This document shows positions 4,216 to 51,548 of a stretch of DNA of 64,000 nt, one piece after another (positions within the stretch are counted from its first letter, which is position 1; each line of letters opens with the position of its first letter). The stretch comes from Heptranchias perlo. Taxonomy: Eukaryota. The translations under genes and the position numbers were made by a program. Under the pieces are notes generated by a model, which saw only the letters and a program-made list of their open reading frames with translations, searched no databases and was not told where the DNA came from. The stretch covers positions 32,860,001 through 32,924,000 of the forward strand of contig NC_090329.1 in assembly GCF_035084215.1 (NCBI RefSeq). Reading direction: 5' to 3'.

Positions 4216-5174
4216 TCTTTTTGCTCATGTTCTGGACAGAGTTTGGTGCAAAAAAGTAAATTTATTACTGCAAAGCAACAGACACTGAACTGAAGTGCTA
4301 GCCTAGATTATGTGTTCAAGACTCTGGAGCGGGACCTGATATAAATCTGATTATATAAATGTAAGTGGTCATTGATACATGTAACAATATTTAAAATATT
4401 AATTTTTTTGTGAAAATATTTTGGAAATGCTGGGGTCAAGTTTATAGAAACTTTTACTTCTTTGGGGTGGAAACTGGTTATGGCTCGTTTATGGATCTGT
4501 ACCCAGCAGCCTGCCGACAGCGCATGCCCCAACCAGGAGGCCTGAGGCCAGCCCAAAATTGGTCCTCAGGCCTCATTAACATTCGTCACATGAGCTGTCG
4601 GCACCTGTCACCCCGCCACAGGCAGCTCACACAATTTACATTGTTGAATATCAGGCTGCTTATTTCGCCAGCAATGGCTCTAAGGTAAGTCCCAGGAGGG
4701 AGTTGGAGCAGCAATGCGGGGAGGGGGGTGCCATCAGGATACTGCAGAATACTGCTTATCCTGGCTCCACAGAAATACTTTTTAAATGGGTGTCTCCAGG
4801 CAGCTCACAAGCGAAGAAGACTCGAAAATCGGGCCACCATGAGGGGACTGGGAAGGGGGCGACCTTGTCGGGAGGGAGAGCAGGCGGGTCGGGAGGGAGA
4901 GTGGTCGGGCCGTGAAGGTAGCAATGCTCAATGATCAGGGAGGACAGAGGCAAAGGCTGGGGTCTGGCTCTCACATGGGGCTTTTACTGTATCTGGCCCT
5001 ATAAAGCCGGAATTTCCCCTGATCTTCCTGCCCTTACTGGCCTTGCACCCAATAGTGCAGCTCCAGATGTGTCCGAACTCCATTACAATGGGGATCCCCA
5101 GGAATATCACACGCTATTTTTCACTGTAAGGAGTCTTACAACACCAGGTTATAGTCCAACAGTTTTATTTGAAA

Positions 5175-5211
5175 TCACAAGCTTTCAGAGGCTTCCTCCT
5201 TCGTCAGGTGA
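5175..5211 (-). ncRNA. Minimal type I hammerhead ribozyme motif
   Basis: Reverse strand reads UCAC-CUGACGA-A-GGAGG-AAG-CCUCU-GAAA-GCUU-GUGA. Confidence 0.7.
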
Positions 5212-5532
5212 GTGCAGGATTCCATAAAGGTATAGCATATCTAGTCATTGAACAATGCCTGGTGATTACAGATAATCTTTCCAACTGCCCGTTATCAAAG
5301 CAATCAAAGGAGTTGAATGGTGTTCAGACAGGGAAACATTACATACAAGACTACCGAATACACAAACGGTCACAACACAATGACACAGAGAGAGAGAGAG
5401 ACACACCCGAAAGGCAGAGAAAGAGATAGAATGACCAGTTGTATTAAAAACAGATAACTTTATTTCGCTGGTGGGGTTACATGTAGCGTGACATGAACCC
5501 AAGATCCCGGTTGAGGCCGTTCTCATGGGTGC

Positions 5533-5745
5533 GCAACAATCGCCAGACAGGAGGGTTCCCTCCCAGTTGGGGAACACTTCAGCAGTCAAGGACATTCAGC
5601 CTCCGATCTTCGGGTAAGCGTTCTCCAAGGCAGCCTTCGAGATACACGACAACGCAAAATCGTCGAGCAGAAATTGATAGCCAAGTTCCACACCCATGAG
5701 GACGGCCTCAACCGGGATCTTGGGTTCATGTCACGCTACATGTAA
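5533..5745 (+). pseudogene. C-terminal fragment of a Penelope GIY-YIG endonuclease (ATIARQEGSLPVGEHFSSQGHSASDLRVSVLQ...RKIVEQKLIAKFHTHEDGLNRDLGFMSRYM*)
   Basis: Manual translation. The VxxHF...H...DL...R...E...I...GLN pattern is typical of PLE GIY-YIG domains. Confidence 0.85.
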
Positions 5746-7009
5746 CCCCACCAGCGGAAAAAAAAGTTATCTGTTTTTAATACAACTGGTCATTCTATCT
5801 CTTTCTCTGCCTTTCGGGTGTGTGTGTGTGTCTCTCTCTCTCTCTGTCTTTGTGTTGTGACCATTTGTGTATTCGGTAGTCTTGTATGTAATGTTTCCCT
5901 GTCTGAACACCATTCAACTCCTTTGATTGCTTTGATAACAGGCAGTTGGAAAGATTATCTGTAATCACCAGGCATTGTTCAATGACTAGATATGCTATAC
6001 CTTTATGGAATCCTGCACTCACCTGACAAAGGAGGAAGCCTCCGAAAGCTTGTGATTTCAAATAAAACTGTTGGAAAATAACCTGGTGCTGTAAGACTCC
6101 TTACATTTGTTCACCCCAGTCCATCACCGGCATCTCCACATATTTTTCACTGCCCAGCCGAGCATACTTCTGGGTAAGTAAGTGAGTTGTGTCCATAACC
6201 ACTTTACGCTTGAGTATCCGCTATCTTTTCTGGTGGTTAAAAAGTCCCTTTGCTCAAGGCAGTCCCCGCCCACAAAACTGCCCATGCCCCCAGGTCGGAA
6301 AGGAGAGTTTCCGCCGATTGTGCCTGTTCAGGAAGATTCGTCAGATTATGCCCAGAATCTCGGGTGTACAGGCACCCGTGGTCATGTGAGTCCAGCCTTA
6401 ATCACCTGACCTGCATTTGACCAGACGTCAATTCAAGCCACTGTCCGGCCTTTTTCTTCAGCTGCTGCAAATACTTGAACAAATCAGTTTAAAACTAGTT
6501 TAAATTCAGTCAATTGATCTGCCCTTTGTAAATAACACTCGTGGCCAGCCAGCAGATAATTGAATCCACAGAGGAGTGTCCCACTATGCTGCAGTAATTG
6601 GTTTATTCAAGACAGCAGTGACCAGCAGTCACCTTGAGCCACAGGCCCTGCTGCTGCAAACAAAATGGCTCAATTCCTGCTCAGGAGAGTGATCAAAGCA
6701 TAAAAGCTGTAAAAAGTTTGCAGAGAGAGAGAAAAGTGTATTACCTTGTGATCTTCAACTTCACTCCGAAGGGAATGTTTTCTTCATTGCTTTTTATATG
6801 ACCGCATCCCAGCCTCATGATGTCCCATTGATTCTGTTCTGTTCCTGTCATGAATCGATTACGTTCAATTACACTGTTTGGTTGTGTTGATTCATGGCAG
6901 ATTCATGCTAATGGGTTTGTGCAGAAACTTGAGCGTAACTTCACCTCGGCAAAACTGGTGCAGTGTCCAGAGCATTCAGGGCACATTTTTCCAATTGCGC
7001 CTTAGCAGA

Positions 7010-7330
7010 AATTCCACGGTGAGATGATAAACCGAGGCCCCATCCGCCCTCCCAGGTGGATGTAAAAGATCTCTCGGCACTATTCGAAGAAGAGCAGAGG
7101 GGTTCTCTCTGGTACCAATTGTTATCCCTCAACCAACATCACTAAAACAGATTATCTGGTCATTATCACATTGATGTTTGTGGGACCTTGCTGTGCACAA
7201 ATTGGCTGCTGCATTTCCTACATTGCTTCCACAGTGACAATACATCAAAAGTACTTCTTTGGCTGTAATGTGCTTTGGGATGTCCTGGGATCGTGAAAGG
7301 CATTATATAACTGCAAGTCTTTCTTTATTT
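7010..7330 (+). mobile_element. DeuSINE-type (SacSINE1-like) SINE, 5'-truncated
   Basis: Matches the body and tail of the copy at 29915-30382. Confidence 0.75.
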
Positions 7331-7457
7331 TCTTTATAGTGCTCATTACATACAACGAGACATCACCAGGTACTTTATATAGCTCGTGATATCAACACTT
7401 TATATGCTGTATGTTGAATAATACTGTGTCATTCACTGATTTTGATTTACAATTTGA

Positions 7458-10400
7458 GAGCAACCGAGGCTCCAGGATGGTATGTTGCCTCCCTGGTGCA
7501 AAGGTCAGGGATGTCTCGGAGCGGCTGCAGGACATTCTGGAGGGGGAGGGTGAACAGCCAGTTGTCGTGGTGCATATAGGTACCAACGATATAGGTAAAA
7601 AACGGGATGAGGTCCTACAAGCTGAATTTAGGGAGTTAGGAGTTAAACTAAAAAGTAGGACCTCAAAGGTAGTAATCTCAGGATTGCTACCAGTGCCACG
7701 GGCTAGTCAGAGTAGGAATGACAGGATAGCTAGGATGAATACGAGGCTTGAGAGATGGTGCAAGAGGGAGGGATTCAAATTCCTGGGCCATTGGAACCGG
7801 TTCTGGGGGAGGTGGGACCAGTACAAATTGGACGGTCTGCATCTGGGCAGGACTGGAACCAATGTCCTAGGGGGAGTGTTTGCGAGTGCTGTTGGGGAGG
7901 GTTTAAACTAATGTGGCAGGGGGATGGGAACCGATGCAGGAAGTCAGTGGGAAGTAAAGTGGTGACAGAAACAAAAGGCAGTAAGGGAGAGTGTACAAAA
8001 CATGACCAGACAGATGGTCTGAGAAAGCAGGGCAAAGACCAAGGGAAGTCTAGATTAAACTGCATTTATTTCAATGCAAGAAGTCTGATGGGCAAGGCAG
8101 ATGAACTCAGGGCATGGATGGGTACATGGGACTGGGATGTTATAGCTATTACTGAAACATGGCTAAGGGAGGGGCAGGACTGGCAGCTCAATGTTCCAGG
8201 GTACAGATGCTATAGGAAAGATAGAGCAGGAGGTAAGAGAGGAGGGGGAGTTGCGTTCTTGATTAGGGAGAACATCACGGCAGTAGTGAGAGGGAATATA
8301 TCCGAGGGTTCGCCCACTGAGTCTATATGGGTAGAACTGAAAAATAAGAAGGGAGAGATCACTTTGATAGGATTGTACTACAGACCCCCAAATAGTCAAC
8401 GGGAAATTGAGGAGCAAATATGTAAGGAGATTACAGACAGCTGCAAGAAAAATAGGGTGGTAATAGTAGGGGACTTTAACTTTCCCAACATTGACTGGGA
8501 CAGCCATAGCATTAGGGGCTTGGATGGAGAGAAATTTGTTGAGTGTATTCAGGAGGAATTTCTCATTCAGTATGTGGATGGCCCGACTAGAGAGGGGGCA
8601 AAACTGGACCTCCTCTTGGGAAATAAGGAAGGGCATGTGACAGAAGTGTTAGTGAGGGATCACTTTGGGACCAGTGATCATAATTCCATTAGTTTTAAGA
8701 TAGCTATGGAGAATGATAGGTCTGGCCCAAAAGTTAAAATTCTAAATTGGGGAAAGGCCAATTTTGATGGTATTAGATAGGAACTTTCAGAAGTTGATTG
8801 GGAGAGTCTGTTGGCAGGCAAAGGGACGTCTGGTAAGTGGGAGGCTTTCAAAAGTGTGTTAACCAGGGTTCAGGGTAAGCACATTCCTTATAAAGTGAAG
8901 GGCAAGGCTGGTAGAAGTAGGGAACCTTGGATGACTCGGGAGATTGTGGCCCTAGTCAAAAATAAGAAGGAGGCATATGACATGCATAGGCAGCTGGGAT
9001 CAAGTGGATCCCTTGAAGAGTATAGAGATTGCCGGACTAGAGTTAAGAGAGAAATCAGGAGGGCAAAAAGGCGACATGAGATTGTTTTGGCAGATCAGGC
9101 AAAGGAGAATCCAAAGAGCTTCTACAAATACATAAAGGGCAAAAGAGTAACTAGGGAGAGAGTAGGGCCTCTTAAGGATCAACAAGGTCATCTATGTGCG
9201 GAACCACAAGAGATGGGTGAGATCCGAAATGAATATTTCACATCGGTATTTACGGTTGAGAAAGGCATGGATGTTAGGGAACTTGGGGAAATAAATAGTG
9301 ATGTCTTGAGGAGTGTACATATTACAGAGAGGGAGGTGCTGGAAGTCTTAACGCGCATCAAGGTAGATAAATCTCCGGGACCTGATGAAATGTATCCCAG
9401 GACGTTATGGGAGGTTAGGGAGGAAATTGCGGGTCCCCGAGCAGAGATATTTGAATCATCCACCGCTACAGGTGAGGTGCCTGAAGATTGGAGGGTAGCA
9501 AATGTTGTGCCTTTGTTTAAGAAGGGTGGCAGGGAAAAGCCTGGGAACTACAGACCGGTGAGCCTGACATCTGTAGTGGGTAAGTTGTTAGAGGGTATTC
9601 TGAGAGGCAGGATCTACAGGCATTTGGAGAGGCAGGGACTGATTAGGAACAGTCAGCATGGTTTTGTGAGAGGAAAATCATGTCTCACGAATTTGATTGA
9701 GTTTTTTGAAGGGGTAACCAAGAAGATAGATGAGGGCTGTGCAGTAGACGTGGTCTACATGGACTTTAGCAAAGCCTTTGACAAGGTACCGCATGGTAGG
9801 TTGTTACATAAGGTTAAATCTCATGGGATCCAAGGTGAGGTAGCCAATTGGATACAAAATTGGATTGACAACAGAAGACAGAGGGTGGTTGTAGAGGGTT
9901 GTTTTTCAAACTGGAGGTCTGTGACCAGCGGTGTGCCTCAGGGATCGGTGCTGGGTCCGCTGTTATTTGTTATTTATATTAATGATTTGGATGAGAATTT
10001 AGGAGGCATGGTTAGTAAGTTTGCAGATGACACCAAGATTGGTGGCATTGTGGACAGTGAAGAAGGTTATCTAGGATTGCAACGGGATCTTGATAAATTG
10101 GGCCAGTGGGCCGATGAATGGCAGATGGAGTTTAATTTAGATAAATGTGAGGTGATGCATTTTGGTAGATCGAATCGGGCCAGGACCTACTCCGTTAATG
10201 GTAGGGCATTGGGGAGAGTTATAGAACAAAGAGATCTAGGAGTACAGGTTCATAGCTCCTTGAAAGTGGAGTCACAGGTGGATAGGGTGGTGAAGAAGGC
10301 ATTCAGCATGCTTGGTTTCATTGGTCAGAACATTGAATACAGGAGTTGGGATATCTTGTTGAAGTTGTACAAGACATTAGTAAGGCCACACTTGGAATAC

Positions 10401-10953
10401 TGTGTACAGTTCTGGTCACCCTATTATAGAAAGGATATTATTAAACTAGAAAGAGTGCAGAAAAGATTTACTAGGATGCTACCGGGACTTGATGGTTTGA
10501 CTTATAGGGAGAGGTTAGATAGACAGGGACTTTTTTCCCTGGAGAGTAGGAGGTTTAGGGGTGATCTTATGGAAGTCTATAAAATAATGAGGGGCATAGA
10601 TAAGGTAGATAGTCAAAATCTTTTCCCAAAGGTAGGGGAGTCTATAACGAGGGGGCATAGATTTAAGGTGAGAAGGGAGAGATACAAAAGGGTCCAGAGG
10701 GGCAATTTTTTCACTCAAAGGGTGGTGAGTGTCTGGAACGAGCTGCCAGAGGCAGTAGTGGAGGCGGGTACAATTTTGTCTTTTAAAAAGCATTTGGACA
10801 GTTACATGGGTAAGATGGGTATAGAGGGATATGGGCCAAGTGCAGGCAATTGGGACTAGCTTAGTGGTATAAACTGGGCGACATGGACATGTTGGGCCAA
10901 AGGGCCTGTTTCCATGTTGTAAACTTCTATGATTCTATGATTCTATGATTCTA
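7458..10953 (+). mobile_element. CR1 LINE, near-intact: partial ORF1 (SGNH esterase) to 7911; ORF2 7911-10859 with a single in-frame TAG at 8778-8780; (TTCTATGA)n tail
   Basis: ORF1 has VVHIGTND and DGLHL. TAATG stop/start overlap at 7909-7913. APE motifs (FNARS, ITETWL, GDFN, SDH) and RT motifs (QHGF, DFSKAFD, GVPQG, FADD). ORFs 7755 and 8811 share one frame. Confidence 0.97.
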
Positions 10954-10969
10954 ACTATTTTTCATATAA

Positions 10970-16199: not shown

Positions 16200-17312
16200 G
16201 TAAGTTTTCAAGTTTATTGCTTCAATGTGTTACTTTCAAAAACAACCTTTTTTTTGGAAATGAGAGAGTCTCTGAGTTCGTTTATGTACTGAAAATTATG
16301 TCTAACGTTAATTGTTTTCACAATGTTCTTAACTTTATGCTTTTGGGGTTTCTTGGAGCAAAGGTTTGAAGAGTATTTTCATCTGATGTGAGAGATATAA
16401 ATGTACGTATTATTTTGGAAAGATCCAAAATCAAGTCTAAGTTTTTTTTTAAATGTGAGTAAGTTCTCGTGCTGGCTCAGCCAAATAACTGAGTCATACA
16501 GACCAGGAAGGCCCCAAGTCCTTCTCTGAGCTAACTGAACTAAGCTGGGGTGGCAGTAGGAGTGCTACAATAGGCCCCTGGGTTAGCAAGGAAAATGTCA
16601 GTCACATATCCTGCTCCTGATCAAAGTACAGTGACCGCTGCTGGATGTGCACATATATGGACATCAGATAAGGAGAGGATAGGGCCCCACTGTAAAATGG
16701 AGAATCAACACTGACTGTAAAAGTTCATGCCTGAGTATTAGCCATTTGGGCAAGGCTCTGGAGGGTGAACATCTATGGAACTATACTTCAGTATGAGTCA
16801 GTGGGGTGGAAATTGGATTGGGCCTATTTTCGGGCCCAAAACAGGCAATGTGCTGAAGTAGAAGGACTGAGGCTCACCTGAAATTGGGTGTCGGGCTTCA
16901 TTTTAACAATAGGTGTGAGCTGCCAGTGCCTGTCGTGTCTCTGAAGGCAGCTCCTCCGATTGCAGCATCCAATTTGGGCCGTCTGCCTCACCAGCAGCAG
17001 CCCTCGGATAATTCCTTTGGAAGGGGGTAAGAAAGACAGGAGGGGGTCAATCACTGGCCAGTAGAGGCCCTCAGGAATGCAGCAGAGCCAGGAGCAGCAT
17101 TTATGCTCCTCCCTGCTCCACAGAAAGGTAAGAAAAAGAAAATCAAAAGCAAAATACTGCGGATGCTGGAAATCTGAAATAAAAACAGAAAATGCTAGAA
17201 ATACTCAGCAAGTCAGGCAGCATCTGTAGAGAAAGAAACAGAGTTAACGTTTCAGGTCGATGACCCTTTGTCAGAACTGGAAGAAGTTGAAGATTAAACA
17301 GTTTTTAACTAA

Positions 17313-17673
17313 TGTAAGGAGTCTTACAACACCAGGTTATAGTCCAACAGCTTTATTTGAAATCACAAGCTTTCGGAGCTTTCCTACTTCGCCAGGTGAG
17401 TGCAGGGTTCCATAAAGGCACAGCATATATAGTCAGAGAACAATGCCTGGTGATTACAGATAATCTTTCCAACTGTAAATCTTTCCAATCTGTAATCACC
17501 AGGCATTGTTCTCTGACTATATATGCTGTGCCTTTATGGAACCCTTCACTCACCTGACGAAGGAGGTAAGCTCCGAAAGCTTGTGATTTCAAATAAAGCT
17601 CTTGGACTATAACCTGGTGTTGTAAGGCTCCTTACATTTGTCCACCCCAGTCCATCACCGGCATCTCCACATC
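17313..17673 (+). mobile_element. Penelope-like family A, fold-back insertion 2
   Basis: ~150 bp inverted arms plus tail. TSD ACAGTTTTTAACYAA at 17298-17312 and 17674-17688. Confidence 0.92.
17550..17586 (+). ncRNA. Minimal type I hammerhead ribozyme motif
   Basis: UCAC-CUGACGA-A-GGAG-GUAAG-CUCC-GAAA-GCUU-GUGA. Confidence 0.7.
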
Positions 17674-18827
17674 ACAGTTTTTAACCAAGCACAGAGTTAG
17701 GGAAAGGGGGGTGTGGAAAGAGGAGGGGAGGGAGGAAAGAACAAAAGGGAAGGTCTCTGATAAGGTGGAGGGCAGGAGTGACTAAATGACAAATGGGATG
17801 ATGGTGCAGGCAAGGAGGGTGGTAATGGGACAAATAAAGAAACAAAAGATGAATCTAAAGGAGCTGCAAATGGCAACAGCAGAACCATTACCAGCACCTG
17901 CTGTCTGAAAAAAAAAGGAGCAGTGTTTATGATCTGAAGTTATTGAAATCAATGTTGAGTCCAGGAGGTTGTAAAGTGCCTAATCGAAAGATGAGCTGCT
18001 GTTCCTCAAGCTTCCATTGAGCTTCATTGGAACAGTGTAAGAAAAAGTAAATATTTGGTCGGCTCCAGTAACTCCACCAAAGCCCGGAGTCTGCTTCGCT
18101 CAGCACTGATGAATTTTGCTGAGGGGGCCTTAAACATGTGTTAATCTCCTCATTAGCATATGCAAGAGGCCTAACGCCTGTTTAAGACGGCCACCCGGGA
18201 GGCCTGAAAATCATCAGAGGACCAATTTCTATCCCAGTGCCTTCAGGAGAGCTGGGAAGGGAAGGAAAATTTGGCAAGAAAAGCTAAAACAAACCATGAA
18301 ATGTAACAATTATTTTTGTTGGATGTTTAAGTTGAAGGCAATCAGATGAAATCACTTAATAGTGTCTCTTTGAATATTGATTTTTTTTTGCACTAATATC
18401 TATTTACATGGGGTTACTTTTGGTGTGCATTGTGATTTACTTGATATAAAAGAAGAGGATGTTATGCTTGGTTGGGTCCATGAGTTATATAAATATCTTC
18501 TCATTTGATAGCCATGAGGTATATAAATATTGTATCATATTGATTTTTTTTCAGCTCATTAATGTTGAAACTTCTTTTTTCAGCTGTTCATTTTTAATTG
18601 GTGTACTTGCTTCCATGGGGACAGAGCTTTCTGACAACTGGGTCAAAAATGCACTGTTCATAAAGCCCTTTGCTAAGAATCTTGACCATTCACTCATTTA
18701 TTGTTAATGTAGCAACATTATGTGAATAAAGGCATAATGAACCAAATTAGATTCCATATCATTGAGCTGTCCAGCCAGTTGAATGGGTGAGTCTACTATT
18801 TCTAATTTGAATGAGAGAAGACATCTG

Positions 18828-19865: not shown

Positions 19866-20134
19866 CTGGTCTCCAGGAACCAGAAATATAAAAGCCAATG
19901 TTAAATATAAGACCCTATGTTGTTATTTTCATAAATTCCTTCCACTTACATTTTTCCATTCTGAGCTCTGCCAGTAACACATGTCAAGAAGAGGCCACTA
20001 TTAGCAGTTTACTGTCTTTACTATAATGCTCTTCGCAGGTGTCTGAACGATGATTCTGATCACAATTATTATGTTTTAAAGCATGATGCCAACCTGAATC
20101 AAACTATCAAATCATCTTGATCATAGTTCATGAA

Positions 20135-20357
20135 TTGTAAACAATTTTACAACACCAAGTTATAGTCCAGCAATTTTATTTGAAATTCACAAGCTTTCGG
20201 AGGCTTCCTCCTTCCTCAGGTGAATGTGAACATTCACCTGAGGAAGGAGGAAGCCTCCGAAAGCTTGTGAATTTCAAAGAAAATTGCTGGACTATAACTT
20301 GGTGTTGTAAAATTGTTTACAATTGTCAACCCCAGTCCATCACCGGCATCTCCACAT
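20135..20357 (+). mobile_element. Penelope-like family A variant, fold-back insertion 3
   Basis: ~94 bp near-perfect arms with a ~4 nt loop and the same tail. ATCATAGTTCATGAA is duplicated at 20120-20134 and 20356-20370. Confidence 0.92.
20232..20272 (+). ncRNA. Minimal type I hammerhead ribozyme motif (identical motif on the - strand at 20185-20225)
   Basis: AUUCAC-CUGAGGA-A-GGAGG-AAG-CCUCC-GAAA-GCUU-GUGAAU, with 6-bp stem I and 5-bp stem II. Confidence 0.75.
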
Positions 20358-21247
20358 CATAGTTCATGAAGAACACTTTGCTTGTGGTCTTGATGCTTTC
20401 CCAAAACATAATAAGCTCAGAATGTGTTCTGGTTTTCTCCATGACACTACTGGACAATGTGAGAATTATATGTAATGATGTGCTCGGTTGTGCTCACTCC
20501 TAACTTACTTTCGCTGTTTCAGTTAAAGCCCAATGCTGCTTTATGAGTCACCCCTACATTTAGAACACAGATATACATATATGTGCAAACCTATACACCA
20601 GAAAACACCAGAAAACAGCGTGGGATCACGCTGTGCAATATTAGCATAAGATCTCAATGCGTTCGTATGACATTCCTTTTGTCTATTATTTTTATGGAGG
20701 TACTAACCCATTTAAAATAATGCCTCTGTTAAACTAGCAGGCAAAGAAACTTCATGCGAACAAGTTCAGCATTTACATGTACACTGTACGATCCCAATCC
20801 AATGATTGCGCTCTTTAAACTATAACATTGCAGGAACTCAATTGCAGTATTTCTCACACTGACCGTGATGTTGAAATGATCAACGCATTTCACCACAAAC
20901 AAGTAAAACTGCTCTCAATGGGTTTCATGGCTCTGCTCTCCAAGGAACCACAGATAGTTATTTATTATACTTGCACTTGATGCACTAACCTTCTGTTGCT
21001 CCTGCCAATGCATCTTATCCATAAAGATTAGCATATCTGTCACCATTAGAGGACTGAAACACCCCCACATATCCTATAGAACCAGAAAAATATTAATATA
21101 ATAATAGCATCAACAAAACATGATGAAGTATGAGATTCTTTTTCTGCTCCACCCTCACAAAGTGAAAACCCATCCTAAAAATTACATTTATAAAATCATC
21201 ATTTAATGGAAATTGTTATTCTTTTATTCTGATATTTACCAGTATAT

Positions 21248-23498: not shown

Positions 23499-25423
23499 CA
23501 TAAGAACATAAGAACATAAGAAATAGGAGCAGGAGTAGGCCAATCGGCCCCTCGAGCCTGCTCCGCCATTCAATAAGATCATGGCTGATCTGGTCCTAAC
23601 CTCAAATCTAAAATCATGTCCAATTTCCTGCCCGCTCCCCGTAACCCCTAATTCCCTTTACTTCTCGGAAACTGTCTATTTCTGTTTTAAATTTATTTAA
23701 TGATGTAGCTTCCACAGCTTCCTGGGGCAGCAAATTCCACAGACCTACCACCCTCTGAGTGAAGAAGTTTCTCCTCATCTCAGTTTTGAAAGAGCAGCCC
23801 CTTATTCTAAGATTATGCCCCCTCGTTCTAGTTTCACCCATCCTTGGGAACATCCTTACCGCATCCACCCGATCAAGCCCCTTCACAATCTTATCATAGA
23901 ATCATAGAATCATAGAAGTTACAACATGGAAACAGGCCCTTCGGCCCAACATGTCCGTGTCGCCCACTTTATACCACTAAGCTAGTCCCAATTTCCTGCA
24001 CTTGGCCCATATCCCTCTATACCCATCTTACCCATGTAACTGTCCAAATGCTTTTTAAAAGACAAAATTGTACCCGCCTCTACTAATGCATCTGGCAGCT
24101 CATTCCAGACACTCACCACCCTTTGAGTGAAAAAATTGCCCCTCTGGACCCTTTTGTATCTCTCCCCTCTCACCTTAAATCTATGCCCCCTCGTTATAGA
24201 CTCCCCTACCTTTGGGAAAAGATTTTGACTATCTACCTTATCTATGCCCCTCATTATTTTATAGACTTCTATAAGATCACCCCGAAACCTCCTACTCTCC
24301 AGGGAAAAAAGTCCCAGTCTGTCTAACCTCTCCCTATAAGTCAAACCATCAAGTCCCGGTAGCATCCTAGTAAATCTTTTCTGCACTCTTTCTAGTTTAA
24401 TAATATCCTTTCTATAATAGGGTGACCAGAACTGTACACAGTACTCCAAGTGTGGCCTCACCAATGCCCTGTACAACTTCAACAAGACATCCCAACTCCT
24501 GCATTCAATGTTCTGACCAATGAAACCAAGCATGCCGAATGCCTTCTTCACCACCCTATCCACCTGTGACTCCACTTTCAAGGAGCTATGAACCTGTACT
24601 CCTAGATCTTTTTGTTCTATAACTCTCCCCAACGCCCTACCATTAACGGAGTAGGTCCTGGCCCGATTCGATCTACCAAAATGCATCACCTCACATTTAT
24701 CTAAATTAAACTCCATCTGCCATTCATCGGCCCACTGGCCCAATTTATCAAGATCCCGTTACAATCCTAGATAACCTTCTTCACTGTCCACAATGCCACC
24801 AATCTTGGTGTCATCTGCAAACTTACTAACCATGCCTCCTAAATTCTCATCCAAATCATTAATATGTTTCAATAAGATCGCCTCTCATTCTTCTGAACTC
24901 CAATGAGTAGAATCCCAATCTACTCAACCTCTCCTCATATGTCCGCCCCCTCATCCCCGGGATTAACCGAGTGAACCTTCTTTGTACTGCCTCGAGAGCA
25001 AGTATGTCTTTTCTTAAGTATGGGCACCAAAACTGTATGCAGTATTCCAGGTGCGGTCTCACTAATACCTTATATAACTGCAGCAATACCTCCCTGTTTT
25101 TATATTCTATCCCCTTAGCAATAAAAGCCAACATTCCATTGGCCTTCTTGATCACCTGCTGCACCTGCATACTAACCTTTTGATTTTCTTGCACTAGGAC
25201 CCCCAGATCCCTTTGTACTGCAGTACTTTCCAGTTTCTCGCCATTGAGATAATAACTTGCTCTCTGATTTTTCCTGCCAAAGTGCATAACCTCACATTTC
25301 CCAATATTGTATTGCATCTGCCAAATCTCCGCCCACTCACCCAGCCTGTCTATATCCCCTTGTAGGTTTTTTATGTCCTCCTCACTCTCTACTTTCCCTC
25401 CCACCTTTGTATCATCTGCATAC
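23499..25423 (-). mobile_element. CR1 3' part with (TTCTTATG)n tail, interrupted by a second CR1
   Basis: ORFs 24859-25458 and 23614-23886 are consecutive pieces of one ORF2 (…DLIETY | KIVKGLDRVDA…). Confidence 0.93.
23893..24865 (-). mobile_element. 5'-truncated CR1 of the same subfamily as 7458-10953, nested in the outer CR1
   Basis: ORF 23982-24743 is nearly identical to the C-terminus of ORF 8811-10859, and the (TTCTATGA)n tail is present. Confidence 0.95.
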
Positions 25424-30590: not shown

Positions 30591-30993
30591 AGAGTTGCAC
30601 AGAGCATGATATTTGAAAAAGTTACGAAGAGGTGCATGGACACAATTTTAGATCCTTTTCACTGCTTCAGTTCTACAACAAGGAAACTAATAATGGGTGG
30701 TAACTAACAACAATTCAGCAAGTTATTACTATTCTTCTGGGTGCGCATTGAAAAATCATATAGTTGGCTGAGCTGAGCTATTGGTAAACTGGATGGTGTT
30801 TACACTATGTTTTGGAAATGCATCCTCTCCATGTTCACTCACCCACTTACTATTGCTGAATTGGTAAAAATGTAACAAATGCCATCTGCCTATGGCAAAT
30901 TATCCAGTTATCCAATGAGTAAGACAATCATAAAAGACCGGGTTCAATCATTATCAGTACCTCGTTCACTGACCTCAGTCAGGACAGAAGAAT

Positions 30994-31195
30994 TGTAAGG
31001 AGTCTTACAACACCAGGTTATAGTCCAACAGCTTTATTTAAAATCACAAGCTTTCGGAGGCTTCCTCCTTCGTCAGGTGACGAAAGAGGAAGCCTCCGAA
31101 AGCTTGTGATTTTAGATAAAGCTGTTGGACTATAACCTGGTGTTGTAAGACTCCTTACACTTGTACACCCCAGTCCATCACCAGCATCTCCACAT
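30994..31195 (+). mobile_element. Penelope-like family A, fold-back insertion 4
   Basis: ~82 bp arms with a 2 nt loop inside the hammerhead core. TCAGGACAGAAGAA is duplicated at 30979-30992 and 31195-31208. Intact hammerhead motif on the - strand at 31044-31080. Confidence 0.92.
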
Positions 31196-33261
31196 CAGGA
31201 CAGAAGAAAGAGTGGTACAGCTTTGGGCTTGGGAGGAGAGAAAAAAAATCAGCCTGAGTTTCTGCTCCTGATTTTATTCAGTGGCCTTGCTGTAAGTGCA
31301 CATGCTCCCAGCAGTTCAATAGTCTGCTAACACACTCTGTCGAAGCTCGCACATGAATAATGGTCACTTGGGTGAGGTGCTAGAGGCTGATCAATGCCTG
31401 TGGAATTGTACTCCAGCAAGGAGTCAGCATCTTCAGGAGAGGAGGGGTGAAGATAAGGTCGCTGAGAAAAGTAGATCACAACAAAGTGATAAATGATAGA
31501 TAAATACGGATGTCAACCTACTCTGCTGCTTATCCACTGACCCCAGTAAATTCAACCAAATTTATGCTATCAGTTTTAGCCTACCTTCCTTTTTTCTCCC
31601 TCACTTTTCTGCAAACATTTTTTTTCAACCTAGCTTCATGTATCCACGGTGTACCATTCTGTCAGAAGAGTAGGAAGGTCAAACCCATAAATATTTCCAC
31701 AGATATCATTAATCTTACTTGTTGGTCATCTATCCAGGAGGCACCGTGGGTACTTCAAGAAGGATTCCAAACAGATTTGATTTATATTTTGTGCTACACG
31801 CCTGATGGACTAACAAGCTGTAAAGACTTGGCTAGCTCCCTCACCTCACACCAGAATGGAAACCCAAGAGAAGGGAGAGAGAGAGATTAAATAAGGTCAT
31901 CTCCATTAAGCCTATTGGGTGCGCCACTAATCTTCAATTCCATAGCAAATAACCAGGTTTTACAAAGGTAGGTTCTGCAACACTGTGGCAAGCATTTCTT
32001 GTAGCTCCTGTAATCTTCTATTTTCCCCTATATCCTAAAACAGGGTAACAGGTTGTCCATTGTGATTTTTATTGTTACATTCCAATTCTACACAGTTTTG
32101 CTGCTTAATGGCATTGTAAGTAAATGCAGTACCTGGTATGCTGCTGAGCAGAACACACAGAAAGAGCCTAGGTATGATCCCTATACTAAACTGAGTTAAC
32201 CCGGTGTGAGCTGAGGCAATGGTAAAGGCACTACAACTCGCCTCAGTATCCCTAGGCTAGGGAAGAGGGGAAAAAATCTGCCTGCATTCCACTTCCGATC
32301 ATTCCTCATGCCAGAAAATGTAAGGTGAGGAAGGGATTAAGTTCACCTGTGATATCCCCTCATAGTCAATGAGTTGGCTGACACTCACTATATGGGAGTA
32401 GGATTTGAATGTGAGAGATGTACAGGTGGGCTTCCATCACCCATAGTCTTACTGTCAGCCCGAGTCAGTGCCTTCAGATGAGGATGGGAGAAAATTGCAG
32501 AAAGAAAATATTTCACATGGCTTTAAAAACAGGATTGCCTTTATTATGTTTACAGGACTTTGTACGTAACAAGTGTGATCTGAAAAATGTTTTTTTCTGA
32601 TGATTCTCTGACTAAAGTGTAGACCCTTTTCCATCATTTTACAGACCACACAAGCCTCTCTGCACCACTGTAAAACTTCATGCTGATTATTTTCCTCTGT
32701 TCACTATATTTCCCTTTCCTTACTCTGTGTGTCCTCTTCAAGATCAGCTTCAACACATTTCTGAGGAGGGAGCTGGTTTCCCATCTGCTCTCTTCAACAA
32801 CAGACAGAAATGGGATCTGATGTGCAGAGTATAAAATCTACACAATCACTTCACTTAATGTCACACGAGAATTCAAACCAACGACACCTCACGCATTTAG
32901 ACCGAGGCCCACTCATTATAGTTTAACAAGGAAACCTATTTTAAAGCATATCACTATGGAAAAGAAACATGCCTAATAATGTATAAATGGGGCTCCAATT
33001 TGTCTCACTGTTTTTCATCATAAATTTCACTTCTAACATTTTCCTGATACCAATCCACGCTACCAACTTCTGTTTAATAGAAGACACCTCCCTTCTTTCA
33101 AATTACAACCCTAACCACAGTGTGTGTGATATATATCAATTGTAACCACTCAGTATAAATGGTTTATGGAAAGGTAAATCAAGTGGTATCACACAGTATA
33201 ATCTGTTCGCCCTGTGGACTCACAGTTTAGGTTACTCGGTGTTTGCCCATCTATGGCCAAT

Positions 33262-33530: not shown

Positions 33531-34082
33531 TATTAAGTATCCCATTGATCCTCATTCTTTCGTCCCCATCTATTGTAAGGTTTTAAGTTTCTCCACACAA
33601 TAAAGATTTAAAGAAGCGCTGGAAATTTTTTAATGGTTTACCTACTGACGGTCCATTGAAAGAGTAAAATAAACAAAGAATACAAATAATGCAAAAAAAA
33701 ACCAAAGGAAAAAGAGATCAGCATCACACTATATACAGCAGAGTAGTAATATTCCAAAAATAACAAACTGTTTGTTATAATCAATGAGGCAAGATTAAGC
33801 CAATCAATACTTACATTGAAAAATCAAATTAAGGTCAAGAGGTTTTGTCGTGAAAATTTTGACAAGGACTAGGCCAAGGGGAACCATGAGAGATCTATTC
33901 AGGCCGAATATTAGCAAGGTGGTTGGAACAAGGGCAGCAAAGCCATAGAATTTATACTAGGAAAGGTCTTGAGTCTGATTATCAAGGCTCTCACAGAGCA
34001 ATGCAAAAAGAAAGAATAAATATATTTGGGCAAATAAGTGATTATCGTGGTGCCAGAAATTGGAGAACGCATCATAGCGTAA

Positions 34083-34355
34083 CTGCTGAGATGAGCCCCC
34101 CCTCCTCCCCCGTACATCTGCTGCTGAGATGAGCCCCCCCCTCCTCCCCCATACATCTGCTGCTGAGATGAGCCCCCCCTCCTCCCCCATACATCTGCTG
34201 CTGAGATGAGCCCCCCTCCTCCCCCATACATCTGCTGCTGAGATGAGCCCCCCCTCCTCCCCCATACATCTGCTGCTGAGATGAGCCCCCCCTCCTCCCC
34301 CATACATCTGCTGCTGAGATGAGCCCCCCCTCCTCCCCCGTACATCTGCTGCTGA
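34083..34355. repeat. Minisatellite, ~38 bp unit x 7.2 (CTGCTGAGATGAGCCCCCCCTCCTCCCCCRTACATCTG), inside a MITE-like element at ~34050-34862
   Basis: Units counted directly (37-39 bp). They differ only in C-run length and one A/G. Confidence 0.95.
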
Positions 34356-35480
34356 AGTCCCCAAAGCTTTCGGGGACTGTGGGAATTTCCACAGTTTGTG
34401 TGGCCACAGAGGGCTGGCAGCACATCTGGGGTGTCCTCCCCTCATCAAAGTTGCAGGAAAGTGCAGCATAAATACCCCCACCCCCACCAAAGTAACTTTT
34501 AGTTGTCTGCGTGGTTCCCTTGCAAAGATCTTCAGGTATACAGGCTGCAATATTGACCCAGACCCCCAGGAGAGCCCCACTTCTGCCCCTTGGTCAGCTG
34601 GCATACCTGGTCTCACCAGGTATACCTGCACTGACCATACACTGGTTCCCAAAGAAGGCCAAGGGCATAGGAACTCCAATGTTCAGGGTCCCTCCTCCCA
34701 GTTGCACACCCCTCACACCTGTGGTCTTGTAAGTCGTGGGCGGAGGCTTCGCTCTCACAAAGCCATTCTGAAAACATCAGCCTAGTTTTCCGACTGTTAC
34801 AGCTGACTCCCACCAAAGTTACGGTGAGAGTTTACTGGAACAGCTGTGGATTTTCTGGGCCCATATCTATAGGATGATAATGGTCAAATGGGATGGCAAT
34901 AAAAGGGGGAAGGGAAGGGCTAGACACAGCTGGACAGTCTTTGATGCTGACGTCCTTCTCACCAGTACAATAGGGAGAAATTGCTGCAGAAATTGCTCTA
35001 GAACTGCAGCATTGCTAAGCCCATTCTCAACGAAGGTTCCATTGAATCCTTTGAATGAAGTTCTAAACTAAAATCTTGCCAGCCTGTTTTGGGGGACGTT
35101 AAAGGTGACATGGTATTATTCAAAAAAGGACAGCAAGTTTTCCTAATGTCCTGGTCAACATTCTTTACTCAATCAATATCATCCGAATTGACTGGTCATT
35201 TATCTCATGGTTTTTTTGCGGGTGGTGCAGATTTGCTGCAGCATTTGCCAATATGAGAGTAATGACTGCATTCCAGTAAGTAAATCATTGCATGGAATGC
35301 TTTCAAAATTTCAATGTGAATTGAGCTATATAAATTCAAGTATTTCTTGGAAAGTCCAGACCTAGTGCAGTACTGGTACTCTTCATGTTTTTTAAGCATT
35401 CTCAGGATGTGGGAGTCACTGGCAAGGCTGGCATTTATTGCCCATCCGTAGCTACAAATGAGTACCTTGCTAGGTCACTT

Positions 35481-43542: not shown

Positions 43543-44558
43543 GGGCTCGATTTTCCCGGGAAATTGAGGGTGCTTTGGGGGCAGGGGGCTCTGAAAATCG
43601 GGGAAATCCCATTCGGTTTCGGAAGGTGGTTCCAACCCGCCAACTTCCGAGTTCCCCACGTACGCACCTGTGTGCGCGCGGGCGCACACAGGTGCGTACG
43701 TGGGGAACTCGGAAGCCGGCGGGATGACAATTAAAGAGCCAAATGTACCTCATTGAGGTACTTAAGGCACTTTACTTGTGACAGATTATGCACTTAGAAC
43801 GATTTTTAACTTACCTGGGCAGCTCGCCCACTGCTTCTGATTCACGCCTGGTGAAACCAAGCATGAGGGTCGGATCAGGGAAAAAGAAACAAAATGAATT
43901 AAATAAAAAACCATTGCATGAAGTTAAAACACAAAATCAACCTACCTTTCCACCCTGCTCTGATGTCTGATATCTCCCTCTCTGATCTCCCCCTCTTCAC
44001 CCCCTGATGTCCCCCCTCGATTTCCCCCTCTTCACCCACTCCGATGTCCCCCCCGATCTCCTCCTCTTCATCCCAATTTTCCATTCTCCCCCCAGATCTT
44101 CCACTCTCCCCCCCCCCCACCACCGATCTTCCCCTCTCCCCCCCCCCCCCCCCCGATCTCCCCTTCTTCACCCCGATCTTCCATTCTCCCCCCGGATCTT
44201 CCCCTCTCCCCCCCACCCAATCTCCCCCTCTTCACCCCGATCTTCCATTCTCCCCCCGGATCTTCCCCTCTCCCCCCCCCCCCCCCCTCCACCCCGATCT
44301 TCCAGTCCAGCGCCAGATGACGTTTCGCTTTCTCTCTTTCTCTTCCCCCACCCTGCGTTGGAGCTCCTGACGGCAGCCAGCCTGTTAATCAGGCTGACTG
44401 CCGGGCGCGAAACCCGGAGAGGATGTTAATCACCATCAATCACGATGCGATCGTGTCGGAAATGGTAAGTTTTGTTTGTTCTGGTTTGCCATGTGCGCCT
44501 TCACCCATCACCCCACCCCACCCTGCTGCCAACTCACCACCATTTCAAAATTGAGCCC
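43543..44558. mobile_element. PIF/Harbinger-like MITE (18828 family) with an internal perfect hairpin and a C-rich array
   Basis: TIRs GGGCTCGATTTT / AAAATTGAGCCC, flanked by AAA. Shared blocks tacctcattgaggtacttaaggca and cagccagcctgtyaatcaggctg. Confidence 0.78.
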
Positions 44559-48105: not shown

Positions 48106-49011
48106 GTTAGTTGGTTAACTATTCCTACATTGCTCAAAGGTCGTTACGGGAACAGGGCATAGAAATATTAGCCCCAAAATTCTACAGCATTTAAGGAAGA
48201 TTCAGGGTACAATATGAGTGAACGGGGAAGATTTTGGAGTAGGTGTCAGTTTTGCTGGATCTCCACCCCGTTTGGCAGCACCAAGGTTTCGGGGGGGGAA
48301 CAGGTGAGATTCCCTTCAATCCGAGCGTACTGAATGTCTGCATGAAGTAGGCATAGACTACTGCCAGTTAGTGGAAGTGGAGTCCACCAAGCAAAGGCCA
48401 TCTTCCTAAGCAGCAAGTCACAAAGCCTAAGGAAAGTGGCCTTTTTAAGGAAGGGACCAACTCTTCTCCCCCAAGCGTTCTTCAGCCAGGCCTGCTGACT
48501 CTCAGGCGCAGTGGCTGCAATTTTCAACTCGTTTGCTGGCACCCCAGCTATGCCAATACTCACCCATTTTATACCAACTGCTTGAGCTCATGAATTCCAA
48601 TAGGGTCAGGCACGTCAGTGGTCAGTGCAGGGCAAGTCCTGCTCTGCCATTGTAATGGCGGTGGAACGAGATCCTGGATTTTCATCCCTTTTACATTTGC
48701 GACCTACCAATCAGAAGTATACAGAACACTCCAATTTGTCTTCAGCTTTTTGCATCCCAAAATCCAGATGTTTCCAAATCTGACTAAAGATACAATCCCA
48801 AGGCCTGTTAAGAGTTATCATTGTATCTCTGTCACTATTACACTGAGGAAAAAGGATGCAAAGTCACCTTTATACTGTTGTTGGTTTTCCCTTATATGAT
48901 CAGTGCACTGGTGTTAAAGGAATCTTGATTATATAAATATTTGGAACTGAATGTTGAAACAAATGTCCTTTGCTGTCTTAGTTTACTCAGCTAATTAGGA
49001 CCTGCTGATCT

Positions 49012-50168
49012 TAGAATCAAAGAATCATAGAATGGTTATGGCACAGAAGGAGGCCACTTGGCCCATCAAGTCCATGCCGGCCCTTTGTAAGAACAATCCA
49101 GTTAGCCCCATTCCCCCACTCTTTCCCTGTAGCCCTACAAATTTTTTCCCTTCAAGTATTTATCCAATTGGTTTTTGAAAGCCACGATTAAATCTGCTTC
49201 CACCACCCTTTCAGGCAGCACATTCCAGATCATAACTACTCACTGCGTAAAAATGTTTTTCCTCATGTCACCTTTGGTTCTTTTGCCAATCACCTTAAAT
49301 CCGTGTCCTCTGGTTCTCAACCCTTCTGCCAATGGGAACAGTTTCTCTTTATTTACTTTATCTAATCCCTTCATGATTTTGAAAATTCCTATCAAATCTC
49401 CTCTCAATCTTCTCTGCTCCAAGGAGAACAACCCCAGCTTCTCCAGTCTATCCTTGGAACTGAAGTCCCTCATCCCTGGAACCATTCTAGTAAATCTTTT
49501 CTGCACCCTCTCTAAGGCCTTCACATCCTTCCTAAAGTGCAATGACCAGAATTGGACACATTACTCCAGTTGTGGCTGAACCAGTGTTTTATAAAGGTTT
49601 AACATAACTTCCTTGCTTTTGGACTCTATGCCTCTATTTATAAAGCCCAGCATCCCATATGCTTTTTTAACCACTTTCTCAACCTGTCCTGCAACCTTCA
49701 ATGATTTGTGCACATATACCCCCAGATCTCTCTGTTCCTGCACCCCCTTTAGAATTGTACCATTTAGTTTATATTGCCTCTCCTGTTCTTACTGCCAAAA
49801 TGTATCACTTCGGATTTCTCTGCGTTAAATTTCATCTGCCATGTGTCCGTCCATTCCACCAGCCTGTCCATGTCCTCTTGAATTCTATTACTATCCTCCT
49901 CACTGTTTACTACACTTCCAAGTTTTGTGTCATCTGCAAATTTTGAAATTGTACCCTATCCACCCAAGTCCAAGTCATTAATATATATCAAAAAAAGAAG
50001 TGGTCCCATCACCGACCCCTGGGGAACACCACTGTATATCTTCCTCCAGTCCAAAAAGCAACCATTCACCACTACTCTCTGTTTCCAGTCACTTAGCCAA
50101 TTTCGTATCCATGCTGCCACTGCCCCTTTTATTCTATGGGCTTCAATTTTGCTGACAAGTCTATTATG
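49012..50168 (-). mobile_element. 5'-truncated CR1 (RT C-half plus 3' UTR)
   Basis: ORFs 49956-50195, 49561-49743 and 49240-49542, plus a TTCTATGA-type tail. Confidence 0.93.
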
Positions 50169-50371
50169 GGGTTGGTAAGTAATTAATACAGCCATCGGTC
50201 ACTAAAATAGTAATTCATATAATTATTCCATTAAGTCTATTCAGGTTCATATTGTAGTAATTAGAAATGGTCAATTTTCCATTAAGGATTTCTAGCTTTC
50301 CCTTCCTTTACAATCAAAGTTCTGCAACAGTTTTTCAGCCGTATGTTGCAATAAACATCCAGAGACATAGA

Positions 50372-50765
50372 GGTAGATTTTCAGCTTGTCGCCCCGGCTT
50401 GGAACTGGTGTTGTGGATCGACCACCCATTATAGAGACAGCCCAATTTTCATTGGAAATATATCGCCATTTCTTCATTGTCGCTGGGTCAAAATCCTGGA
50501 ACTCCCTACCTAACAGCACTGTGGGAGAACCGTCACCACACGGACTGCAGCGGTTCAAGAAGGCGGCTCACCACCACCTTCTCAAGGGCAATTAGGGATG
50601 GGCAATAAATGCTGGCCTCGCCAGCGATGCCCACATCCCGTGAACGAATAATAAAAAAAAATTTCCATTGAAATCAATAAAAATGAAATACAGGTGTTTT
50701 CTATAATGTGCAGCTGATCCGCATTGTTAGTTCTACACCCGGGAGACAAGCTGAAAATCTACTCC
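50372..50765. mobile_element. Small palindromic MITE interrupted by a ~200 bp LINE 3' end (50452-50660, + strand)
   Basis: TIRs GTAGATTTTCAGCTTGTC / GACAAGCTGAAAATCTAC. The insert matches the reverse complement of 54855-55057 and is flanked by tttycattg. A similar MITE lies at ~56294-56472. Confidence 0.7.
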
Positions 50766-51297
50766 ATGAAATTCAAGATGAAAATAAGCTGTTTCAAAGG
50801 AGCTGATTACAAGCAGTAACCTTCATCCTGACTAAAGAGGACACAAATGCAAAATTAACAGGGCTCAAAGTGTTCAAAGCAGATCAATGGGTTTCTCATC
50901 AATGACTTGCCTTTAATGTACAAAATGTCCCGAGAAATAATAAAGGGAGAGAAGTTTGAAGTGGTGGCTAAAGGATAGGCCAAATGTTTTTTAAATAAGG
51001 AAAGTGAAATAGAGAAGTGGAGGGTTTAGAGAGGAATTTCCAGAGAGTAGGGCTGAGGCAACTGAAAGCTCTGCCACCAGTGGTGGGTTATTGCAGACAG
51101 GAAAGGAAAGGGTGGGTTAGTGACGCTGATAGCATACAGTCAAGCAAAAAGTAAAGGGACCATGTTTTGAGGTTCAGTTCAACGCTGACAGTAGAGGAGA
51201 GGCACCTTTGTTGTTTTTTGACATTTTGAAGGGATTAGTAAGCTTTGTAATTACTATAAATTTACTGAATATTGTGCCTTACCAAGATCTAGATAAA

Positions 51298-51548
51298 TGT
51301 GAGGAATCTTACAACACCAGGTTATAGTCCAACAGTTTTATTTGAAAATCACATGCTTTCGGAGGCTTTCTCCTTCGTCAGGTGAGTGTGAGATTCCATG
51401 GAAGGTACCGCATATCTCACACTCACCTGACGAAGGAGAAAGCCTCCGAAAGCTTGTGATTTTCAAATAAAACTGTTGGACTATAACCTGGTGTTGTAAG
51501 ATTCCTTACATTTGTCCACCCCAGTCCATCACCGGCATCTCCACATCA
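51298..51548 (+). mobile_element. Penelope-like family A, fold-back insertion 5
   Basis: ~97 bp arms plus tail. TAGATAAATGT is duplicated at 51290-51300 and 51549-51559. Confidence 0.92.
51423..51459 (+). ncRNA. Minimal type I hammerhead ribozyme motif
   Basis: UCAC-CUGACGA-A-GGAG-AAAGC-CUCC-GAAA-GCUU-GUGA. Confidence 0.7.

What the first reader, a model, noticed from the sequence alone, without database searches (positions are those of the whole stretch)
5125..51548. Five stereotyped fold-back Penelope-like insertions: variable-length palindrome plus fixed unpaired tail
Seen: 5125-6141, 17313-17673, 20135-20357, 30994-31195 and 51298-51548 share one architecture: TSD (11-15 bp), inverted arm, short loop, direct arm, a ~36-38 nt tail (TTGTCCACCCCAGTCCATCACCGGCATCTCCACAT[CA]), TSD. 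Arm length varies (~410, 150, 94, 82, 97 bp), but the outer end of the inverted arm is always the same element position. Only the longest copy reaches the GIY-YIG coding end. Known: PLEs often carry inverted pseudo-LTRs and a short 3' tail. Inference: each insertion joins two cDNAs head to head, one from the true 3' end and one started at a fixed internal site, or folds back during synthesis. The series is then a clean mechanistic footprint of an apparently recently active family, about one copy per 13 kb here.
Basis: partly seen in the sequence, partly recalled or inferred. Interest (0 to 1): 0.7.

Follow-up and report, generated by a model that had tools for sequence, protein, structure and literature searches.

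The report
Two-ended Penelope retrotransposon insertions, shark
These five mirror-image repeats are old, truncated copies of a very abundant Penelope-like jumping gene of a known kind, and because the short tail sits on only one arm while either arm can be the longer one, each was likely built from two DNA copies started at the two cut strands and joined head to head.

Summary
All five copies have a target duplication, an inverted arm, a direct arm and a 36-38 nt tail. They are 5'-truncated insertions of a shark Penelope-like element (RT, CX5CxxC linker, C-terminal GIY-YIG, minimal hammerhead; 11,357 exact tails genome-wide). The tail is the last 37 nt before the ORF's ATG. The architecture is published, and so is the tail as the stretch between two RT start sites (PMC11167929). 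Measured here: 48 of 48 neutrally sampled pairs carry exactly one tail. At a junction found 679 times, the loop comes from the tail-less arm in 16 of 30 loci and from the tailed arm in 14. That rejects one-way fold-back and favours two cDNAs. Arm 5' ends are coupled (rho 0.77, n=58) and pile up about 30 nt below a TATA-like box. Both ends share 1-2 more bases with the target than chance. This scan found the same pattern before, in this genome and in others.

The parts
5115..5126 (+). Copy 1 left target duplication (12 bp at longest; last 2 bases shared with the element)
5125..5537 (-). Copy 1 tail-less arm, element 2616-3028 (ATG = 1), outer end at site A
5531..6105 (+). Copy 1 direct arm, element 2462-3028; 7-nt overlap with the inverted arm at 5531-5537
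5533..5745 (+). Last 70 codons and stop of the ORF (C-terminal part of the GIY-YIG endonuclease)
6019..6055 (+). Minimal hammerhead motif (stem I, CUGANGA core, stem II, GAAA); also present in the direct arm of the other four copies
   Evidence: sequence; covariation over 19 copies; no Rfam hammerhead hit
6090..6105 (+). 6-bp hairpin whose 3' base is site A
6106..6141 (+). Copy 1 tail (site A to site B; last bases before the ATG in full-length copies)
6141..6152 (+). Copy 1 right target duplication
17298..17688 (.). Copy 2: duplication 17298-17312, inverted arm 17313-17475, 12-nt filler resembling neighbouring element sequence, direct arm 17488-17636, tail 17637-17673, duplication 17674-17688
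20120..20370 (.). Copy 3 (different subfamily): duplication 20120-20134, inverted arm to 20227, 2-nt loop, direct arm 20230-20321, tail to about 20357, duplication 20356-20370
30979..31208 (.). Copy 4: duplication 30979-30992, inverted arm 30994-31080, recurrent 3-nt-overlap junction at the hammerhead 5' edge, direct arm 31078-31159, tail to about 31197, duplication 31195-31208
51290..51559 (.). Copy 5 (third subfamily): duplication 51290-51300, inverted arm 51298-51415 (includes the loop), direct arm 51414-51510, tail 51511-51548, duplication 51549-51559

Best explanation
The five palindromes are truncated insertions of an endonuclease-bearing Penelope-like retrotransposon, each likely made when both strands of a staggered cut primed a separate cDNA, one at site A and one 37 nt further on at site B, and the two cDNAs were likely joined head to head by short microhomology. 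Steps. (1) The GIY-YIG domain cuts both strands about 10-12 bp apart (duplication shown; cutting inferred, and shown in vitro for the anole element). (2) Each 3' end pairs over about 1-3 bases with the RNA and starts reverse transcription, one end at A (3' foot of a conserved hairpin), the other at B (at the AUG) (end positions and microhomology shown; pairing inferred). (3) The cDNAs stop, most often 85-125 nt in, about 30 nt below a TATA-like box, which is likely the 5' end of the mRNA (hot spot shown; transcription start inferred). (4) The two cDNA 3' ends anneal, or one snaps back and lands on the other, and repair completes both strands (junction types shown; route inferred). When only one cDNA survives, a single arm ending at A or at B results. 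The one-tail rule and the coupled 5' ends suggest one protein dimer on one RNA, but this last step is not shown.
For: One tail per pair in 48 of 48 pairs sampled without regard to the tail: 18 from unselected blocks outside the window (16 by script, 2 read by eye) and 30 junction-anchored. In the exact-match lists, 21 head-to-head pairs had one tail in 19, both in 0 and neither exact in 2; P(no double) = 3e-4 under independence. Loop donor at the 679-fold junction: 16 tail-less vs 14 tailed. Tail-less arm longer in 24, tailed arm longer in 12, within 5 nt in 22 of 58. Single arms end at A (8) or B (10). Genome-wide, 3027 of 3690 matches extend 6 nt up to A but only 1713 of 3027 extend 6 nt past it, about 31% extra loss. 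Duplications in 96 of 98 pairs, mode 12. Target-element overlap 1.94 and 1.59 nt against 0.88 and 0.69 in 2000 permutations, none reaching the observed value, n=94. 59 of 148 arm 5' ends lie in element 2935-2949; a TATA-like box was found 36-46 nt above the ribozyme core in 87 of 139 references. In vitro, the anole protein cuts and extends both strands, starts at two sites bounding the tail, and is predicted to be a dimer (PMC11167929).
Against: Tight coupling of the two 5' ends (40 of 58 within 25 nt vs 20 expected; 12 of 26 vs 3.6 away from the hot spot) is also what snap-back predicts, so the joining step is not resolved. One locus (L207) has a short inverted piece that does not start at A, which looks like snap-back. 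Exceptions to the one-tail rule in selected sets: L229 and L186 have no tail on either end (L186's ends are from two subfamilies); L006 is unresolved. In vitro, start-site use did not differ between strands and the start was described as not homologous to the cut DNA (PMC11167929). The test of TATA versus ribozyme edge as the cause of the hot spot was inconclusive (n=45 vs 10, P=0.13; 17 arm ends left out for lack of a mapped TATA). No sign that both arms came from one RNA molecule: 13 A>G vs 16 T>C among 93 shared rare variants. Later deletions across a palindrome centre could distort the arm-length data.
Confidence: 0.75

Rival explanations
1. One-way fold-back: a single cDNA starts at B, snaps back on itself, copies itself, and the hairpin is resolved at site A by the endonuclease or by a block.
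For: Many near-perfect hairpins with 0-4 nt loops at self-complementary spots; strong coupling of 5' ends; L207. Self-priming was proposed in PMC3846280 and endonuclease resolution of the tail in PMC8557442 (passages).
Against: It predicts that the loop always belongs to the tailed arm; observed 14 of 30. It predicts the tailed arm is never shorter; it is shorter in 24 of 58. It does not explain 8 single arms that end at A.
Confidence: 0.12
2. Two separate RNA molecules (or a circular or multimeric RNA) template the two arms independently, and the one-tail rule comes from asymmetry of the protein alone.
For: Both arms can exceed 1.5-2 kb with very different lengths (L073, L089, block C27). L175 repeats one internal jump twice, as a circular template would. 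Arms share subfamily variants, which needs only one master copy.
Against: Independent templates do not explain 5'-end coupling away from the hot spot (rho 0.89, n=26) unless the joining step imposes it.
Confidence: 0.3
3. The short palindromes are a non-autonomous element (MITE-, SINE- or retrozyme-like) copied as a unit from a few palindromic masters.
For: One junction recurs 679 times.
Against: That junction occurs in at least six arm variants and in both polarities. Arm lengths form a continuum from about 40 nt to 2.6 kb. The five window copies have five different junctions.
Confidence: 0.04
4. Assembly artefacts or inverted duplications that arose after insertion.
For: No independent long reads were available.
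Against: Arms differ by 1-4% substitutions in the window; duplications bracket the whole structure in 96 of 98 pairs; short-read contigs match copy 3's outer junctions without difference, with 21 element bases each, from what may be the source sample.
Confidence: 0.02

Closest known systems
Canonical endonuclease-bearing Penelope-like elements with inverted pseudo-LTR and 30-40 bp tail (Pen2a of Adineta vaga, PMC3846280; overview in PMC8557442 and PMC8969392; passages read)
   Same: 5' truncation, partial tandems, inverted truncated copy joined head to head, tail on one end only, short target duplication, TATA-like box in the pseudo-LTR.
   Different: Here the tail ends at the ATG instead of inside the ORF. 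The one-tail rule, loop polarity, 5'-end coupling and end microhomology are counted here; I did not find such counts in the passages read.
Poseidon element of Anolis carolinensis, PAc (PMC11167929; parts 1-2 of 4 read, supplements not read)
   Same: Two internal start sites bounding the tail; both strands cut and extended; AT-rich targets (duplications here 69% AT); hammerhead upstream; stem-loop at a start site.
   Different: PAc is Penelope/Poseidon, a clade without the linker zinc finger, and its start sites lie inside the ORF. It was reported to start without homology to the cut DNA and without strand difference; this family shows 1-2 nt excess microhomology and strict A+B pairing.
Neptune/Nematis clades (PMC8557442)
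   Same: CX2-5CxxC linker motif before the GIY-YIG core; CCHH motif; C-terminal endonuclease.
   Different: Neptune versus Nematis was not resolved by a tree; 'Neptune' is likely from host range (passages of 10.64898/2026.07.22.740005) and recall.
LINE-1 twin priming (recalled, not read)
   Same: Both target strands prime cDNA and the products join by microhomology into an inversion.
   Different: In L1 the two segments come from non-overlapping parts of the RNA and the second start is variable; here both starts are fixed, 37 nt apart, so the arms duplicate each other.
Minimal hammerhead ribozymes of metazoan PLEs (PMC4209133; parts 1-2 of 4 read)
   Same: Short stem I, extra base before stem II, G-C closing pair, palindromic bases in place of stem III.
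   Different: Cleavage not tested; no excess of copy ends at the predicted cut site.

Membership tests
Endonuclease-bearing Penelope-like elements | Single ORF with RT and C-terminal GIY-YIG endonuclease | tested here: met
   Script consensus of 40 long loci gives an open 891-codon ORF. Natural copy L186 is open throughout but has YIDN and lacks the usual stop. RVT_1 E=6e-9. Pfam GIY-YIG is not hit directly, but the C-terminus aligns (E=2e-25) over the GIY-YIG domain of relative P0020.
Endonuclease-bearing Penelope-like elements | [quoted passage not shown] | tested here: met
   VYLIRCRKGC...WYIG followed by two histidines in L186; definition from PMC8557442.
Endonuclease-bearing Penelope-like elements | Pseudo-LTRs from partial tandems, inverted truncated copies, 30-40 bp tail | tested here: met
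   Full-length copies preceded by a truncated copy (L071, L080, L086, L184, L189 and others); 37-nt tail.
Endonuclease-bearing Penelope-like elements | Hammerhead motif in the pseudo-LTR | tested here: met
   Core conserved; 95.9% of cells paired and changes on both sides in stems I and II over 19 copies of related origin. Rfam gave no hammerhead hit.
Endonuclease-bearing Penelope-like elements | RT groups with PLE/telomerase RTs in a phylogeny | not tested
   No tree built; 637 relatives at E<=1e-20, many listed ones with RVT_1 plus GIY-YIG.
Neptune/Nematis clades | CX2-5CxxC zinc-finger-like linker between RT and endonuclease | tested here: met
   CX5CxxC at consensus residue 753 and in L186.
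Neptune (versus Nematis) | Placement in the RT tree with named Neptune references | not tested
Non-LTR retrozymes / MITE-like autonomous hairpin family | Fixed-length unit copied as such, tandem monomers | tested here: not met
   Continuous arm lengths, many junctions, both polarities, several subfamilies.
Currently active family | Identical arms or empty alleles in other individuals | tested here: inconclusive
   0 of 22 arm pairs of 250 nt or more are identical (0.6-5.2%). Empty-site tests on other runs gave no bridging contig.

The most novel reading that the evidence does not exclude
A PLE dimer binds one RNA and starts two nested cDNAs on it, one subunit at site A and one at site B, each primed by a different strand of the cut and each choosing its exact start by 1-3 base pairs with the target end. 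The trailing enzyme displaces the leading cDNA, both run to the same RNA 5' end, and the commonest genomic product is a copy of the mRNA's own 5' leader. This would be a general integration mechanism for the class and would explain inverted pseudo-LTRs, the one-sided tail and the short stubs together.
Probability: 0.3. Interest if true: 0.68.

Novelty: new member of a known kind. Interest (0 to 1): 0.45.

Why it matters
How Penelope-like elements form their inverted repeats and one-sided tail is called unresolved in PMC8557442, and the steps after priming are unvalidated in PMC11167929. This family, with roughly 100,000 insertions by extrapolation, gives countable rules: one tail per pair, symmetric loop polarity, coupled 5' ends and slight primer pairing. 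These rules discriminate between published models and can be tested in the existing in vitro system. The element and its architecture are not new in kind.

Tried and rejected
Hammerhead cut as a truncation hot spot: 24 ends at the predicted cut versus 4 and 29 at neighbouring control positions; 13 of the 24 begin with AG, mostly consistent with a stem I microhomology join, and the 29 include tandem-array repeats. Not supported. RNA-editing trace of a single template (lead from e1-10280452): no A>G excess, Fisher P=0.45. Cap-derived extra G at single-arm 5' ends: none evident by eye in the 25 listed. TATA versus ribozyme edge: medians favour TATA (32 and 31.5 nt from TATA; -5 and -11 from the core) but P=0.13 (P=0.26). 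Empty alleles: organism C has orthologous flanks of copy 3 at about 88% identity but no contig bridges the site; inconclusive. Expression: no RNA holder listed. Rfam: no relevant hit. Whole-region folding is not better than shuffles (z -0.38). Matches spaced 2983 bp apart are a host tandem array holding two stubs, not element multimers. One alignment held a wrong row (redone) and one structure string was out of register (redone). Literature searches for a twin-priming model of PLEs listed none; none of the 20 listed papers held 'twin priming'. [quoted passage not shown]
Full report
OBSERVATION. The 35-nt tail occurs five times in the window at the stated places and never in 100 shuffles. Each copy has an inverted arm on the left, a direct arm and tail on the right, and a target duplication of 11-15 bp at its longest. 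The junctions differ: a 7-nt overlap with 154 extra bases on the direct arm (copy 1), a 12-nt filler (copy 2), a 2-nt loop (copy 3), a 3-nt overlap (copy 4) and a loop supplied by the inverted arm (copy 5). Both arms of a copy share subfamily variants, and the five copies fall into three subfamilies by the site A hairpin.

WHAT IT IS. The genome is 3.25 Gb. The best named protein hits, at 80-96% identity, are labelled as shark proteins. Walking upstream from copy 1 gave full-length elements. A script consensus of 40 long loci has a 3,065-nt unit with an open 891-codon ORF: RT motifs, a CX5CxxC linker and a GIY-YIG-type C-terminus. One of the 40 loci, L186, is open throughout, though with YIDN in the active site. 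Pfam finds RVT_1, and the C-terminus aligns to the GIY-YIG domain of a relative. Counting from the ATG, the stop is at 2676, the hammerhead core at 2946, site A at 3028 and site B at 3065, the base before the next unit's ATG. The tail is therefore the end of the 5' leader, not the RNA's 3' end. The hammerhead stems and a 6-bp hairpin ending at site A show changes on both sides across 19 related copies; these counts are sequences, not independent events. This is a canonical endonuclease-bearing Penelope-like element of the Neptune/Nematis type; Neptune is likely but was not tested by a tree.

ABUNDANCE AND AGE. The exact tail occurs 11,357 times. In 1.264 Mb of blocks chosen by position, window included, there are 43 clusters, which merge to 41 insertions: 23 two-armed, 10 single with tail and 8 single without. 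That is about one per 30 kb and about 100,000 genome-wide by extrapolation. Arms differ by 2.6% pooled over 57 pairs, and none of 22 long pairs is identical. At the pedigree rate of another shark, 7e-10 per base per generation (PMC10587355, passages), this means millions of generations. The figure is rough, because C>T and G>A changes dominate the unshared differences (104 of 281). Current activity is not excluded, but nothing here shows it.

RULES OF THE INSERTIONS. (a) Ends are fixed within a few bases: 83 of 98 tail-less ends lie within -1..+5 of A and 84 of 98 tailed ends within -1..+5 of B (1 pair failed parsing and 9 with upstream tandems were left out). Genome-wide, survival over the six bases up to A is 3027 of 3690 and over the six bases after A 1713 of 3027. 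(b) One tail per pair: 18 of 18 unselected pairs outside the window (one has a deleted tail centre and one is cut by the block edge; both read by eye) and 30 of 30 junction-anchored loci (one tail-less arm is cut short). In selected sets, 20 of 20 tail-anchored pairs and 17 of 18 arm-anchored pairs obey it. L229 and L186 have no tail on either end, and L006 is unresolved. No two-tailed insertion was seen. (c) One junction, at a small self-complementary spot on the 5' edge of the hammerhead, occurs 679 times exactly. Its two-base loop comes from the tail-less arm in 16 of the first 30 loci and from the tailed arm in 14, across at least six arm variants. (d) Arm 5' ends are correlated (rho 0.77, n=58; 0.89 for the 26 pairs away from the hot spot), yet either arm can be longer (24 vs 12). 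(e) 59 of 148 5' ends fall in 2935-2949, single arms included, about 30 nt below a TATA-like box that is conserved while the spacer diverges. (f) Duplications in 96 of 98, mode 12, 69% AT. (g) Target and element overlap by 1.9 nt at A and 1.6 nt at B, about twice the permuted values (94 of 96 used).

MECHANISM. One-way fold-back from B predicts a 0:30 loop split, a tailed arm that is never shorter, and no single arms ending at A; all three fail. Two cDNAs primed from the two strands of a staggered cut explain (a), (c), (f) and the single arms. The same chemistry (both strands cut and extended, two start sites bounding the tail, predicted dimer) was shown for the anole element (PMC11167929, parts 1-2 of 4 read). 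Rule (b) needs asymmetry: the two primers do not choose sites independently. Rule (d) needs coupling, either a shared RNA 5' end or snap-back of one cDNA that then lands on the other. My data do not separate these, and the editing test for a single RNA was negative. Rule (e) fits run-off at the transcription start, since the mRNA would carry sites A and B in its leader as well as at its 3' end. The discriminating test against a structural stop at the ribozyme was inconclusive. There is no hot spot at the predicted ribozyme cut.

COMPARISON. Inverted truncated copies, a one-sided 30-40 bp tail and short duplications are the typical structure in PMC3846280, PMC8557442 and PMC8969392 (passages). 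Minimal hammerheads in vertebrate PLEs are in PMC4209133 (parts 1-2 of 4). PMC3846280 favours self-priming and PMC8557442 endonuclease resolution of the tail; the loop-polarity count argues against the simple forms of both. Six searches listed no paper with these counts or a twin-priming model for PLEs; older subscription papers and the anole paper's supplements were not seen. L1 twin priming is recalled, not read. This scan's notes hold 146 findings with these words in at least 29 genomes, and several on this same family in this genome. They reach the same reading and are unchecked AI notes, not support. My two-cDNA reading and the TATA test preceded those look-ups.

VERDICT. Real, correctly described, a new member of a known kind. 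Interest 0.45: the architecture is known, but the counted rules make an open mechanistic question testable.

Noticed in passing
L175:4819-6672: A copy in which the same blunt jump (element 1574 joined to 2975, the predicted hammerhead cut) occurs twice in tandem, as rolling copying of a circular RNA would give. A single case; no genome-wide excess at that position.
   Followed up: partly
L281 (G000:C42:203601-212600); similar spacing on C1173: A 2,983-bp tandem array, 99.9% identical between units, each unit holding a tailed and a tail-less stub head to head about 1.9 kb apart and an internal minisatellite.
   Followed up: partly
L186:3910-7006 and L187:4127-6321 (G000:C6, about 70 kb apart): Two copies share the same left junction; L186 has ends from two subfamilies and an uninterrupted frame, probably a recombinant.
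   Followed up: partly
L243, near 1586-1610: A tail-less arm paired with a tailed 'arm' of only about 11 nt, read by eye; some apparent single arms may be such pairs.
   Followed up: no
block C2a (L056:551-982) and L211: Unrelated DNA (about 213 and 28 nt) lies between the two arms, pointing to repair synthesis at the joint.
   Followed up: no
element 2940-2948, antisense; e.g. window 5205-5213: The antisense strand at the 5' edge of the hammerhead reads as a near-perfect splice donor (CAG/GTGAGT), at the truncation hot spot; it may be a by-product of ribozyme conservation.
   Followed up: no
window 9976-10946, 23919-24865, 53200-54101: Three 97-99% identical copies of a LINE RT 3' end (318-codon open frame, CR1-like by recalled motifs), younger-looking than the Penelope copies.
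   Followed up: partly
window 60717-62889: Nested inverted repeat (166 and 214 nt arms) with a frame that resembles a LINE ORF1 esterase-like domain (recalled resemblance).
   Followed up: no
window 34058-34376 and 44018-44318: A 38-nt minisatellite and a C-rich 20-nt low-complexity array.
   Followed up: no
protein P0013: A database gene model labelled epn2 carries a 96%-identical piece of this element's RT, suggesting exonisation or misannotation.
   Followed up: no
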